Positions 38,103 to 40,568 are shown, counted from the first letter of the stretch. The stretch is 64,000 bases of DNA from Pseudomonadaceae bacterium (GCA_024743175.1 JANSXA010000001.1:521656-585655); one strand, 5' to 3'. The notes: a model not told the origin generated them from the letters alone. Program-made: numbers and translations.

Positions 38103-39008
38103 TCACCCGCGAGGGTGATGTGTACGTACTAGATTCTGCAGTCGCTGCTGGGCTATGTGCGTGTAGATCTGAGTTGTAGAGAGATCACTGTGGCCCAACA
38201 TCATCTGCACTGCACGCAGGTCAGCGCCATTATCCACTAGATGAGTGGCAAAAGCATGGCGTAATGTGTGCGGTGACACCGTTGTCGGGATGCCCGCAAC
38301 GAGCGCATATCGCTTTATCGCATGCCAGAATGTCTGCCGGGTCATCTGCTGGCCGCGGCGACTCGGGAACAGCACACTGCCGGCTTCTCCGAGAAGTTCG
38401 TCACGCGCCGCCTGCAGATATCTGCGCAACCACAGTAGACTGGTCTCACCCATGGGTACCAGACGTTCTTTGCCACCTTTACCGGTCACTCGAACTACAC
38501 CCTGGCGCTGGTTGATACTTGTGAGTTGCAGCGAAATCAGTTCTGAAATGCGCAGACCGGTGGCATACAGGACCTCAAGCATCGCCCTGTCACGCAGACC
38601 CAGAGCAGTTTCGACATCTGGCGCAGCCAGCAGCGCTTCAACCTGCGCAGCTGAAATAACCAGCGGTAGAGCCCGTCCGGTTTTAGGGTGCGCAAGCAAC
38701 GCTGTAGGATCCTCAGCAAGTACCTCTCTGAGCAACTGATGCCGATAAAAGCCCCGCAGCGCGCTCAAACTGCGCGCCGCACTTCGGCTGGCGATACCCT
38801 GACTGAAACGCTGCGCAATATATTCCATAAGATCTGATGATCGTGCGTTGAGCAGATCTCGCCCACGGGGCAGCAACCACTTCTGCACATTCTGCAGATC
38901 ACGGCGATAGGCAGCCAGCGTATGCTCGCTGAGACCTCTTTCTAACCACATGGCGTCTAGGTAAGTGCTGATAACCTCATCTGGCGAGGACACGGCAACT
39001 GCTTCCAA
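38103..39008 (-). CDS. xerD: Tyrosine recombinase XerD
   Basis: LYATGLRISEL, GKGGKERLVP, HTLRHAFATHL, LGHSDLSTTQIY motifs; xerD-dsbC synteny. Confidence 0.97.
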   Translation of the reverse strand: MEAVAVSSPDEVISTYLDAMWLERGLSEHTLAAYRRDLQNVQKWLLPRGRDLLNARSSDLMEYIAQRFSQGIASRSAARSLSALRGFYRHQLLREVLAEDPTALLAHPKTGRALPLVISAAQVEALLAAPDVETALGLRDRAMLEVLYATGLRISELISLQLTSINQRQGVVRVTGKGGKERLVPMGETSLLWLRRYLQAARDELLGEAGSVLFPSRRGQQMTRQTFWHAIKRYALVAGIPTTVSPHTLRHAFATHLVDNGADLRAVQMMLGHSDLSTTQIYTHIAQQRLQNLVRTHHPRG

Positions 39009-39127
39009 AAAGATAATACTGAATCACGATTTTAGTCCGAAAGTGACACAGATTGACACGCCGGGACGGCGGTTCTTTCGAGTTTCAGCGCGCGGGGCGG
39101 GCTCATCCGGATACCCAAATTCAGATT

Positions 39128-39140
39128 TAACTTATTGAAT
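39128..39140. promoter_or_regulatory. IHF-like site (ATTCAATAAGTTA on the minus strand; one mismatch to WATCAANNNNTTR)
   Basis: In an AT-rich tract about 50-65 bp upstream of a sigma54 motif. Confidence 0.55.
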
Positions 39141-39191
39141 TTTAAAGATATTTATTTATAAGGCGTGAAAAAGGATGGGTTAGCGTAAAGT

Positions 39192-39207
39192 TGGCACGGG
39201 ACATGCA
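39192..39207 (+). promoter_or_regulatory. Sigma54 -24/-12 promoter TGGCACG-GGAC-ATGCA
   Basis: GG(39193-4)-N10-GC(39205-6) with the TGGCACG consensus; no ORF downstream on this strand. Confidence 0.7.
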
Positions 39208-39217
39208 GCTTAGAAAG

Positions 39218-39430
39218 CGAGCTTCAATGCAGTATGTCACCGTCCCCCCGACATATTGGAGCACCGCAGCTGAACGGACGTCTCTCCCGTGATGCTGACC
39301 AGCTTGCTAAGCGATCTCTCTCCCCCTCTCTCCCAAGCTTAGCAAGCTGGCTCTATTTCTAAAGCCTCCTGCTCTCTCCATCTTTCCCGATATTCTGGGT
39401 CAGATTTCAGGGGTAGAGAGATTGCCTAAA
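39218..39430 (+). ncRNA. Candidate sRNA with 3-4 hairpins bearing CU-rich loops
   Basis: Stems 39230-38/39250-58, 39274-77/39287-90 and a perfect 14-bp 39299-312/39337-350; loops ACCGTCCCCCC, ACGTCTCTC and GATCTCTCTCCCCCTCTCTCCCAA. Confidence 0.6.
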
Positions 39431-39435
39431 GCAGT

Positions 39436-39789
39436 CTACTTGATCTTTTCTTTGATTCGCGCAGCCCGACCTGACAGTTCACGCAGATAGTACAACTTCG
39501 CCTGGCGCACATCACCGCGTCGCTTCACTTCAATACTGGCAATCAGTGGGCTGTGGGTCTGGAACGTACGCTCAACGCCAACGCCATGGGAAATCTTCCG
39601 CACAACAAAGGCTGAGTTCAGGCCGCGGCTTTTAATGCCAATAACAACGCCTTCAAAGGCCTGCAGACGCTCACGATCACCCTCTTTGACTCGGACCTGG
39701 ACACTGATGGTATCGCCAGGTGCAAACTCAGGGATGTCCTGATTCAGCTGGTCGTTCTCAATCTCTTCAATGATTTTATTTTTACGCAT
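39436..39789 (-). CDS. rplS: 50S ribosomal protein L19
   Basis: [33 protein letters not shown] motifs; ATG 39789 with GAGG RBS. Confidence 0.98.
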
Positions 39790-39797
39790 GTTAAGCC

Positions 39798-40568
39798 TCA
39801 CTGCTTTTTCGTAGTGTTCTGCTGTTCTTTCGATGCGGCAAAACACGCTGTTAACAACTTTCTGTCCGCATCAGAGAATACTCGTCGTATGAGCATGTCC
39901 GGGCGCTGATGGAAAGTTCGTTGTAACGCCTCCCGGCGTCGATATTCAAATATTCTCTGGTGGTCACCACTGAGCAGAACGTCAGGCACGCTGCCTTCGG
40001 CGGTATCCACGGGGCGCGTATAGTGAGGGTAATCGAGCGTTCCATCAAGATGTGATTCGTCAATTATTGACAAAGAATTACCTAACGTACCGGGAATATG
40101 TCGCGCAATCGCATCACAGACCACAAGCGCAGCTAATTCACCGCCGCTGAGTACATAGTCACCAATAGACCAGCGCTCATCCACATAGTGATCGACAAAG
40201 CGCTGATCCAGACCCTCGTAGCGCCCACAGACGATGATCAGGCTGCCTGTCTGGCTTTCCTGTACCGCCGTTGCCTGCTGGAAAACCTCGCCCTGGGGGT
40301 CCATGAGCACCACCTTCGGCGTATCCGGGGCCGCGGCTCGAGCCGCTTCCAGTGCTGACACCAGCGGTGCCGTCATCATCACCATGCCGGCACCCCCGCC
40401 ATAGGGACGATCATCAATCGTACGGTGTTTATCTTTCGCAAAATCGCGTGGGTTAAAGGTCTGCAGCTGCAGGCTGCCGGCTTCCAGAGCACGAGCAAAA
40501 ACCCCACCACTGCGTGCTGCATCGATCAGTTCCGGTAATACGGAAATAATCCCTAACCACATGGCCAC
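39798..40568 (-). CDS. trmD: tRNA (guanine-N1)-methyltransferase
   Basis: [31 protein letters not shown] motifs. Confidence 0.98.

What the first reader, a model, noticed from the sequence alone, without database searches (positions are those of the whole stretch)
39128..39435. Candidate sigma54/IHF-dependent sRNA with anti-Shine-Dalgarno-like loops between xerD and rplS
Seen: an IHF-like site, then TGGCACG-N4-ATGCA, then about 215 nt with no ORF folding into hairpins (one a perfect 14-bp stem) whose loops are almost pure C/U (CCGUCCCCCC, CGUCUCUC, UCUCUCUCCCCCUCUCUCCC, CCUCCUGCUCUCUCC). Known: sigma54 promoters need an enhancer-binding activator, often with IHF, and CU-loop multi-hairpin sRNAs (cuckoo/alpha-r14 type) pair with RBSs. 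Inference: an unannotated trans-acting sRNA. Alternatively the opposite strand (rplS 3' UTR) shows about seven GGA motifs, several in loops, as a CsrA sponge.
Basis: partly seen in the sequence, partly recalled or inferred. Interest (0 to 1): 0.75.

Follow-up and report, generated by a model that had tools for sequence, protein, structure and literature searches.

The report
Pilus-linked sigma-54 small RNA gene
Between xerD and rplS lies a conserved, unannotated gene of about 142 nt for a small RNA in an uncultured marine/soil Pseudomonadales family; it has a sigma-54 promoter whose upstream sites resemble those of the pilin gene, and three hairpins with C/U-rich loops that probably pair with ribosome-binding sites.

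Summary
TGGCACGGGACATGCA (39192-39207) is a sigma-54 -24/-12 box. It is kept, with a free-varying spacer, in every homologue examined. It is followed by three covarying hairpins with loops GUCCCC, CGUCUCUCC and CUCUCCC-rich. The third hairpin, a 14-bp stem plus U-rich tail, is the likely terminator.

The conserved RNA is about 142 nt (39218-39359), not 215 nt. The fourth CU stretch (39367-39381) is conserved only in the nearest relative.

G-U versus A-C counts (101 vs 16), fold z-scores (-4.3 vs -1.2), the promoter and the U-tail all point to the + strand. This argues against the minus-strand CsrA-sponge alternative.

No Rfam family matches. The RNA occurs in at least 12 of 44 genera of one GTDB family (records labelled Ca. 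Azotimanducaceae, Pseudomonadales or K189A, nearly all MAGs) and in none of 134 genera sampled across the order, apart from its own.

New here: the upstream activator sites resemble the pilA promoter's sites (GTGAC-N7-GTCAG-N3-GTGAC at about -160, with an IHF-like site at about -60). All 21 genus genomes with the full RNA have a PilR orthologue, and none of the 42 without PilR has it. I infer a PilS/PilR-activated sRNA.

Targets remain unresolved. Strand and ends are not shown by reads.

The parts
39021..39059 (+). Putative enhancer (UAS) for the activator: GAATCAC-N7-GTCCG-AAA-GTGAC, followed by TTGACAC one helical turn later. It lies about -171 to -133 from the promoter and only 13-50 bp upstream of the divergent xerD start.
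   Evidence: A PWM built from the pilA UAS of 12 other genomes of the genus scores 8.0 here (p=0.013 against 2000 random windows). Own pilA scores 33.8, and ten other sigma54-type boxes of the genome give p=0.43-0.97. Relatives carry stronger versions, GTCGCAAT-GTGAC-N5-GTGAC-N7-GTCAA.
39128..39140 (-). IHF-like site ATTCAATAAGTTA (reads TAACTTATTGAAT on the + strand), about -64 to -52 from the promoter box.
   Evidence: 1 mismatch to WATCAANNNNTTR. TAAC-N2-ATTGA is conserved at this position in relatives. pilA promoters have the same kind of element, CTAA(C/G)-N4-TGAAAT.
39192..39207 (+). Sigma-54 promoter TGGCACGGGACATGCA (GG at 39193-39194, GC at 39205-39206).
   Evidence: TGGCAY-N5-nTGC is invariant and the spacer varies in all homologues. 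rpoN is present in the genome.
39218..39359 (+). The sRNA itself. The TSS at about 39218 is predicted from -12 spacing and is not mapped. The 3' end is placed after the U-rich tail CUCUAUUUC.
   Evidence: CM R1 scores 150.6 bits on 39216-39362. MFE equals the covariation-supported structure, z = -4.28. A metatranscriptome contig of 170 nt corresponds to about 39205-39374.
39221..39262 (+). Hairpin 1: outer stem GCUUCAA/UUGGAGC, inner stem UAUGUC/GACAUA, loop 39239-39249 ACCGUCCCCCC (conserved GUCCCC).
   Evidence: The U-G pair at alignment position 9/47 alternates with U-A, and G-U with G-C and A-U.
39267..39297 (+). Hairpin 2, loop 39278-39286 ACGUCUCUC. The motif CGUCUCUCC(C) is nearly invariant across the family.
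   Evidence: Most of its pairs show double (compensatory) changes.
39299..39359 (+). Hairpin 3: 14-bp stem CCAGCUUGCUAAGC/GCUUAGCAAGCUGG with a 24-nt loop GAUCUCUCUCCCCCUCUCUCCCAA (39313-39336) and the tail CUCUAUUUC. This is the probable intrinsic terminator and the most widely conserved module.
   Evidence: The compensatory pairs GC->AU and UA->CG, together with 30 G-U against 2 A-C cells, are; the same compensatory pairs are tabulated.
39360..39435 (.). Spacer before the rplS stop codon. It is not part of the conserved RNA.
   Evidence: Conserved only in G015. The pairing appears in the long fold.
38103..39008 (-). xerD-like recombinase gene, divergent from the sRNA.
   Evidence: ORF list. 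The same neighbour is present in relatives.
39436..39789 (-). rplS, the last gene of rpsP-rimM-trmD-rplS, convergent with the sRNA. Its transcripts appear to read through the antisense of the sRNA.
   Evidence: ORF list. RNA-run contigs are continuous from trmD/rplS to about 39180.

Best explanation
This is the gene for a conserved sRNA of about 142 nt, transcribed from the + strand by sigma-54 RNA polymerase.

Shown by comparison:
- a -24/-12 box in the correct register;
- three covarying hairpins whose loops carry UCCC-type C/U motifs;
- a third hairpin with a U-rich tail that ends the conserved unit.

Inferred, activation: an enhancer-binding protein bound about 130-170 bp upstream, with IHF bending the DNA at about -60. 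The activator is most likely the pilus response regulator PilR, because the same tripartite GTGAC/GTCAG/GTGAC site stands at the same distance upstream of the sigma-54 pilA promoter. The RNA would then be made whenever PilS/PilR switches on pilin synthesis.

Inferred, mechanism: the exposed C/U loops pair with G-rich Shine-Dalgarno regions (GGAGAG/GGGAGA) of several mRNAs and block translation initiation, as in other C-rich-loop sRNAs. The targets are not identified.

My confidence by layer: a real + strand sigma-54 sRNA about 0.85; PilR as the activator about 0.6; RBS pairing as the mechanism about 0.5.
For: Promoter:
- The box is conserved with a variable spacer in 10 of 10 homologues.
- 47 CU-loop hairpin-3 records have a box on the same strand, 87-159 nt upstream.
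- The strict pattern occurs 11 times in the genome against 1 for the reversed control.
- rpoN and hfq are present, and the genome has 10 EBPs.

Structure:
- RNAalifold finds 36 pairs, 11 with double changes.
- On 52 sequences, 94.6% of cells pair against 81.3% when shuffled; 199 cells show double changes against 48; slid controls give 21-47%.

Strand:
- G-U 101 against A-C 16.
- z = -4.28 on the + strand against -1.16 on the - strand.
- The pyrimidine/U tail follows hairpin 3 only on the + strand.

PilR link:
- The pilA UAS consensus (G/C)TGAC-N7-GTCAG-N3-GTGAC lies at about -160 in 24 genomes of 6 genera.
- 30 of 43 sRNA upstream regions exceed the 95th percentile of random windows.
- In the own genome only pilA and the sRNA score among 12 sigma54 boxes.
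- The own PilR candidate sits in rluD-comL-pilS-pilR-fimT synteny.
- 21 of 21 sRNA-positive genus genomes have the PilR orthologue, and 0 of 42 genomes without it have the full sRNA.

Expression: the region is present in RNA-derived assemblies, including a stand-alone 170-nt metatranscriptome contig.
Against: - No strand-specific reads were available. Only strandless Logan contigs were available, and some end 13-40 nt upstream of the predicted TSS. TSS, 3' end and strand therefore rest on sequence logic.
- The own-genome UAS is a weak match (PWM 8.0, p=0.013). The PilR/sRNA co-occurrence is confounded with the split between large-genome and small-genome clades.
- A distant clade has NtrC-like sites instead (TGCACCA-N3-TGGGTCA). 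Two genomes without PilR keep a hairpin-3-only version with a different UAS.
- Target prediction gave no enrichment over a reversed-loop control. The best candidates keep extended complementarity only in the closest relatives.
- pilA's own ribosome-binding site is among the least complementary.
Confidence: 0.6

Rival explanations
1. The + strand sigma-54 sRNA is real, but its activator is not PilR. It could be NtrC or one of the eight unassigned EBPs, and the similarity to the pilA UAS would then reflect related DNA-binding domains or chance.
For: The own UAS match is weak. Clade D relatives carry NtrC-consensus-like palindromes. An NtrC orthologue is present. Genomes without PilR keep a truncated version with a perfect sigma-54 box.
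Against: The shared tripartite site stands at the same distance in the pilA and sRNA promoters across genera. No other own sigma54 promoter scores. Co-occurrence with PilR is perfect, 21 of 21.
Confidence: 0.22
2. The RNA is real but does not work mainly by pairing with ribosome-binding sites in trans. One option is that it acts in cis as an antisense partner of the read-through 3' UTR of the rpsP-rimM-trmD-rplS transcript, either through RNase III processing or with the abundant r-protein transcript titrating the sRNA. The other is that it sequesters a pyrimidine-binding protein.
For: RNA-run contigs run continuously from trmD/rplS across the whole antisense of the sRNA to about 39180. The locus is fixed next to rplS in all relatives. 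The hairpin-3 stem is conserved in sequence beyond what structure needs. There is no statistically supported trans target.
Against: The most conserved residues are the single-stranded loop motifs, not the stems. That is the signature of seed regions. Antisense overlap alone would not conserve loop sequences across genera. Contigs carry no strand and may merge overlapping transcripts.
Confidence: 0.12
3. The functional RNA is on the minus strand: the rplS 3' UTR, or an RNA processed from it. Its G-rich loops (GGGAGAGA, GGGGAC) carry GGA motifs and would sponge CsrA/RsmA.
For: Every loop holds GGA on the - strand. A CsrA-like gene exists in the genome. The - strand appears to be transcribed as rplS read-through.
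Against: G-U 101 against A-C 16 means the - strand would carry C-A mismatches in conserved stems. The - strand fold is not better than shuffles, z = -1.16 to -1.42. There is no CsrB/RsmY/RsmZ match even at E<=10. No GacA box lies near the locus. A conserved sigma-54 promoter and U-tail exist only for the + strand. The GGA motifs lack the usual A(N)GGA loop context.
Confidence: 0.04
4. There is no RNA gene. Hairpin 3 is just a bidirectional terminator for rplS, and the sigma-54-like box is a chance or decayed site.
For: Hairpin 3 lies 15-80 nt from the rplS stop codon. In the small-genome clade the - strand has a U-run after it.
Against: A terminator does not explain a -24/-12 box conserved at a fixed register in about 47 species, two further covarying hairpins with invariant loop motifs, or a conserved UAS and IHF site.
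Confidence: 0.02

Closest known systems
Sigma-54/EBP-dependent sRNAs: Qrr1-5 (LuxO), GlmY (GlrR + IHF), CrcZ (CbrB + IHF), NrsZ (NtrC), Pxr. These are named from my own knowledge; the Qrr/LuxO dependence is also stated in the abstract of bioRxiv 10.1101/2021.07.01.450815.
   Same: A stand-alone sRNA gene whose only promoter is a -24/-12 box with an upstream enhancer and, as for GlmY and CrcZ, an IHF site between them. The RNA serves as the post-transcriptional output of one two-component system.
   Different: There is no sequence or structure homology: none of the 4227 Rfam models matches. The inferred activator is PilR, for which the library search found no sRNA target. The loops are C/U-rich rather than the Qrr seed, CrcZ CA motifs or GlmY decoy structure.
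sX13 of Xanthomonas (PMC3771888), and the 6C sRNA of Mycobacterium, whose C-rich loops are named in its title (PMC6486639). RsaE/RoxS-type UCCC sRNAs of Firmicutes are added from my own knowledge.
   Same: Several hairpins whose loops expose C-rich motifs. The 6C paper's title states that its C-rich loops bind multiple mRNA targets. Here every loop carries UCCC/CUCCC, which suggests the same logic.
   Different: Unrelated in sequence, with no Rfam hit. The promoter type is sigma-54. Targets were not demonstrated here, and genome-wide prediction was not better than a control.
   Same: Multi-hairpin RNAs with anti-SD-like pyrimidine loops.
   Different: No covariance-model match. The phylum-level host, architecture and promoter all differ. 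The resemblance is one of mechanism, not membership.
CsrB/RsmY/RsmZ protein-sponge RNAs.
   Same: Only the complement of this RNA would show repeated GGA in loops.
   Different: It is the wrong strand by G-U asymmetry, promoter and terminator. There is no GacA box and no model match.
The PilS/PilR - sigma-54 - pilA circuit of type IV pili. The P. aeruginosa regulon is described in PMC6058289.
   Same: The promoter architecture matches the pilA promoter of the same genomes: a tripartite GTGAC/GTCAG/GTGAC site at about -160, an IHF-like site at about -60, and a -24/-12 box.
   Different: The product is a non-coding RNA rather than pilin. The half-site arrangement differs: there is an extra GTGAC-N7-GTCAA palindrome in relatives, and the own copy is weaker.

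Membership tests
Sigma-54-dependent promoter | GG at -24 and GC at -12 with consensus TGGCAC-N5-TTGCW spacing | tested here: met
   TGGCACGGGACATGCA at 39192-39207. The box is invariant and the spacer varies in all homologues.
Sigma-54-dependent promoter | rpoN and enhancer-binding proteins encoded by the genome | tested here: met
   An ORF with the RpoN box (ARRTVAKYR) lies on C1. There are 10 PF00158 EBPs.
Sigma-54-dependent promoter | Upstream activator sites about 100-200 bp away, often with an IHF site between them and the promoter | tested here: met
   Conserved GTGAC-type sites lie at -170 to -125, and TAAC-N2-ATTGA at about -60.
Sigma-54-dependent promoter | Transcription abolished without rpoN or the EBP | not testable with these tools
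   The lineage is uncultured and no stranded reads were available.
PilR regulon | Same binding motif as the pilA promoter of the same organism | tested here: inconclusive
   A leave-own-out pilA PWM gives pilA 33.8, the sRNA 8.0 (p=0.013), and ten other promoters p>0.4. Relatives score up to 15-16 (p=0.0003), and 30 of 43 have p<=0.05.
PilR regulon | Co-occurrence with pilS-pilR | tested here: met
   21 of 21 genomes with the full sRNA have a PilR orthologue of at least 70% identity. 0 of 42 genomes without PilR have it. This is confounded by clade structure.
Rfam families (cuckoo, alpha-r14, sX13, Qrr, GlmY/Z, CrcZ, NrsZ, RsmY/Z, CsrB and the rest) | Covariance-model score at or above the gathering threshold | tested here: not met
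   There are 0 hits on the whole window. Only chance hits (E 0.12-6.8, plant miRNA and similar) appear at E<=10 on 38950-39500.
C-rich-loop base-pairing sRNAs (functional class) | C-rich motifs exposed in two or more hairpin loops and conserved among homologues | tested here: met
   The motifs GUCCCC, CGUCUCUCC and CUCUCCC/UUGGUCCC are conserved in loops across 48 sequences.
C-rich-loop base-pairing sRNAs (functional class) | Complementary G-rich sites at the RBS of target mRNAs, conserved in relatives | tested here: inconclusive
   The energy distribution is no better than the reversed-loop control. The candidates are a DUF4212-symporter operon, a small OMP, a gpsA-like gene and an OmpR-type regulator. 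They keep long complementarity only in the nearest relatives.
Csr/Rsm sponge RNAs | Multiple A(N)GGA motifs in loops of the transcribed, structured strand | tested here: not met
   GGA occurs only on the - strand. Its stems would carry A-C mismatches (101 G-U against 16 A-C on the + strand), and its fold is not better than shuffles.
Csr/Rsm sponge RNAs | GacA/UvrY box (TGTAAG-N6-CTTACA) upstream | tested here: not met
   No match with up to 3 mismatches lies within 2 kb of the locus.

The most novel reading that the evidence does not exclude
The PilS/PilR pilus two-component system has a dedicated sigma-54-dependent sRNA as a second output besides pilin. Sensing of the pilin inventory would then be relayed post-transcriptionally to a set of mRNAs with G-rich ribosome-binding sites. 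This would be the first PilR-dependent riboregulator I could find. It could explain why PilR regulons contain many genes without PilR sites. In addition, the RNA is fully antisense to read-through transcripts of the rplS ribosomal-protein operon, which could couple its activity to growth rate.
Probability: 0.4. Interest if true: 0.65.

Novelty: new member of a known kind. Interest (0 to 1): 0.5.

Why it matters
It adds a well-supported, unannotated RNA family to a widespread lineage known almost only from MAGs (marine, sediment, soil, alga-associated). It also gives this lineage a testable regulatory circuit: PilS/PilR plus IHF plus sigma-54 driving an sRNA. Sigma-54-dependent sRNAs are few and each has been informative (quorum sensing, amino-sugar, carbon and nitrogen control). 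A pilus-linked one would connect surface and pilin sensing to translation control. The family alignment and covariance model made here could be used to annotate it in other genomes.

Tried and rejected
- Rfam at gathering score and at E<=10 gave nothing.
- A second genomic copy of TGGCACGGGACATGC (C11) lies inside an ORF with no hairpins and is a chance match.
- Strand from public RNA runs: only strandless Logan contigs were available. The region is present in them, but ends and strand stay unresolved.
- EBP naming by NCBIfam identified only NtrC. PilR had to be identified by synteny.
- A regex search for the UAS at other sigma54 promoters was uninformative until the pilA promoter was noticed.
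- Target prediction used heuristic gene calls and RNAduplex of the three loops against 5514 start regions. It was no better than reversed loops (mean -15.8 vs -16.6 kcal/mol; 0.1% tails -32.4 vs -33.3).
- The two best-looking candidates were followed into relatives. Extended pairing is kept only in the closest species.
- pilA, pilSR and flagellar genes are not outstanding targets.
- Small-ORF reading: frames and lengths are not conserved.
- GacA box: none.
- Earlier notes of this scan: nothing on this element.

Full report
LOCUS. All neighbouring genes are on the - strand: an xerD-like gene (38103-39008), then a 427-bp gap, then rplS (39436-39789), trmD, rimM, rpsP and ffh. The candidate is therefore divergent from xerD and convergent with the ribosomal-protein operon. 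The window is contig C7:521656-585655 of a 4.7-Mb, 98%-complete assembly. The best DNA holders are phycosphere and algal metagenomes.

OBSERVATION. TGGCACGGGACATGCA stands at 39192-39207, with GG and GC in the canonical -24/-12 register. It is preceded by an AT-rich stretch containing ATTCAATAAGTTA (39128-39140, - strand; one mismatch to the IHF consensus). The segment 39218-39359 folds on the + strand into three hairpins (MFE -48.3 kcal/mol, z = -4.28, no shuffle as good). The reverse complement is not better than shuffles (z = -1.16). Rfam gives nothing at gathering score on the whole window, and only chance hits at E<=10 on the locus.

CONSERVATION DEFINES THE UNIT. A DNA search of 41 related genomes found 10 homologues, all in the same GTDB genus. 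Their similarity begins at the promoter box. All ten keep TGGCAC-N5-nTGCA while the 5-nt spacer differs in each. The alignment shows three conserved hairpins and loss of similarity about 10 nt after the third. Only the nearest relative (88% identity) shares 39360-39435.

RNAalifold recovers the three hairpins, with 36 pairs of which 11 show double compensatory changes. A covariance model (R1) finds the RNA in 23 of 67 genomes of the genus. There are 21 strong hits, all in genomes of 3.3-6.1 Mb. In a 301-genome, 134-genus sample of the order it finds only the window's own genome; that sample held only 7 genomes of the RNA's own family besides it.

A scan of 185,579 species genomes with the hairpin-3 stem pattern returned 65 loci. 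Of these, 47 have a C/U-rich loop and also TGGCAY-N5-nTGC on the same strand 87-159 nt upstream. The records are nearly all MAGs, plus one single-cell assembly, labelled Pseudomonadales, Gammaproteobacteria, Ca. Azotimanducaceae or K189A clade. Within the GTDB family the strict stem pattern occurs in 47 of 400 genomes and 12 of 44 genera. This is a lower bound, since the window's own variant stem escapes the pattern.

Across all of these the loop motifs are the most conserved letters: GUCCCC in loop 1, CGUCUCUCC in loop 2, and CUCUCCC (often followed by UUGGUCCC) in loop 3. On 52 model-aligned sequences, 94.6% of cells pair against 81.3% after shuffling. There are 199 cells with double changes against 48. 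Slid controls pair at 21-47%. The alignment is fitted to the model, so these figures lean towards the structure.

STRAND. Four independent features point to the + strand:
- The conserved sigma-54 box is oriented towards the hairpins.
- G-U pairs outnumber A-C mismatches 101 to 16 over 48 sequences, and 30 to 2 in hairpin 3 alone. On the - strand those G-U pairs would be C-A mismatches.
- Only the + strand folds better than shuffles.
- Hairpin 3 is followed by a pyrimidine/U-rich tail on the + strand in nearly all species.

No GacA box is nearby and no Csr/Rsm model matches. The CsrA-sponge reading is therefore unlikely, although a CsrA-like gene exists. No conserved ORF is present.

EXPRESSION. 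Only strandless Logan contigs could be laid. Two probable RNA runs (flagged 'RNA?') hold a contig that runs from trmD/rplS through the gap and ends near 39180. A marine-sediment metatranscriptome holds a separate 170-nt contig equivalent to about 39205-39374. The region is thus transcribed in nature. The rplS operon probably reads through the antisense of the sRNA. TSS, 3' end and strand are not established by reads.

WHICH ACTIVATOR? The genome has rpoN and ten EBPs. NCBIfam names only NtrC. Inspection of the other strong sigma-54 boxes showed that the type IV pilin gene pilA (C1, MKNAMQKGFTLIELM...) has TGGCACACGGTTTGCT with cTGTGACcgccagcGTCAGCtaGTGACAtt at -159.

pilA promoters of 24 genomes in six genera of the family share (G/C)TGAC-N7-GTCAG-N3-GTGAC at about -160 and an IHF-like CTAA(C/G)-N4-TGAAAT at about -60. 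The sRNA promoters of the genus carry (T)TCAC-N7-GTCGC-AAT-GTGAC followed by GTGAC-N7-GTCAA over the same interval.

A PWM built from pilA sites gave the following results:
- It scores 30 of 43 sRNA upstream regions above the 95th percentile of random genomic windows, ten of them at p<=0.0023.
- With the own pilA left out, own pilA scores 33.8 and the sRNA 8.0 (p=0.013, site 39021-39049).
- The ten other sigma54-type boxes of the genome give p=0.43-0.97.

The EBP at C7:658404-659825 lies in the order rluD, comL/bamD, a pilS-like kinase, the EBP, then a fimT-like minor pilin. From my memory of PAO1, this is the pilSR neighbourhood of Pseudomonas aeruginosa. Orthologues of at least 70% identity occur in 25 of 67 genus genomes. 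All 21 genomes with the full sRNA are among them, and none of the 42 without PilR has it.

Caveats on the PilR assignment:
- The co-occurrence tracks the split between large-genome and small-genome clades.
- The own UAS is a weak match.
- One distant clade shows NtrC-like palindromes.
- Two genomes without PilR keep a hairpin-3-only RNA with a perfect TGGCAC-N5-TTGCT box and a different upstream repeat.

I rate PilR as the activator at about 0.6.

MECHANISM. The loops all expose UCCC/CUCUCC, the complement of GGGA/GGAGAG Shine-Dalgarno variants. The nearest functional analogues are the C-rich-loop sRNAs sX13 (PMC3771888) and 6C (PMC6486639), plus RsaE from my own knowledge. hfq is present.

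I tried to find targets. Exact complements of the loops sit on the ribosome-binding sites of several genes:
- a DUF4212-symporter operon (uugggggagagaggcAUG);
- a 193-aa beta-barrel OMP (GGAGAGACGgAUG);
- a gpsA-like gene;
- a 602-aa secreted protein;
- an OmpR-type regulator.

However, a genome-wide RNAduplex scan of 5514 heuristic start regions is no better than reversed-loop controls. In relatives the two best candidates keep long complementarity only in the closest species. pilA's conserved AACGGAGU ribosome-binding site is among the least complementary. The base-pairing mechanism is therefore an inference from anatomy, and the targets are unknown.

VERDICT. The finding is a real, previously unannotated sRNA family, of a known general kind: sigma-54/EBP-dependent, with multiple hairpins and C-rich seed loops. 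It is restricted to one uncultured Pseudomonadales family. It has a plausible and new link to the PilS/PilR pilus regulon.

Noticed in passing
L110-L133 (pilA loci), e.g. own genome C1:104523-104668 (-): The pilA 5' UTR, about 75-100 nt between the sigma-54 promoter and the start codon, is conserved across genera: GCAACGG(G/A)CGCGGC ... GGCUGCCACGUUUUGACA ... AGUAACGGAGU. This suggests a structured leader with a regulatory role of its own.
   Followed up: partly
L035/L088 (G022:C436:11376-11780): One relative carries the full sRNA followed by two partial tandem copies (CM hits of 26.8 and 20.9 bits). Each consists of a GC-rich hairpin (AAGCCGCUCCUACAGAGG...) fused to hairpin-2/3-like modules, so the 3' module has been locally duplicated.
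   Followed up: partly
L041, L042, L060, L069 (G004, G329; K189A-clade records): Small-genome members that lack PilR keep only hairpin 3, behind a perfect CTGGCACagcttTTGCT box. Their 5' part is different and AT-rich, with AUUAGGAGAAGAA in it, and their upstream direct repeat is GCACAC-N5-GCACAT. The regulator and seed appear to have been swapped.
   Followed up: partly
window 39405-39420 vs 39313-39328: In this genome and its nearest relative, a segment just before the rplS stop codon (GGGGUAGAGAGAUUGC) is complementary over about 16 nt to the hairpin-3 loop. Read-through of the sRNA terminator, or the rplS 3' UTR on the other strand, could therefore form a long alternative helix.
   Followed up: no
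window 39180-39900 (runs X20, X26, X16): RNA-run contigs are continuous from trmD/rplS through the whole antisense of the sRNA. No intrinsic terminator is predicted for rplS on the - strand in 38900-39600.
   Followed up: partly
window 38993-39059: The putative activator sites begin only 13-30 bp upstream of the xerD start codon (TTG 39008 or GTG 38993). The xerD promoter must therefore overlap the sRNA's enhancer/IHF region, and divergent co-regulation is possible.
   Followed up: no
window 39059-39071 (+): There is a terminator-like hairpin, CGCCGGGACGGCG followed by GTTCTTTCGA, on the + strand with no + strand gene upstream. It overlaps the 3' edge of the enhancer region.
   Followed up: no
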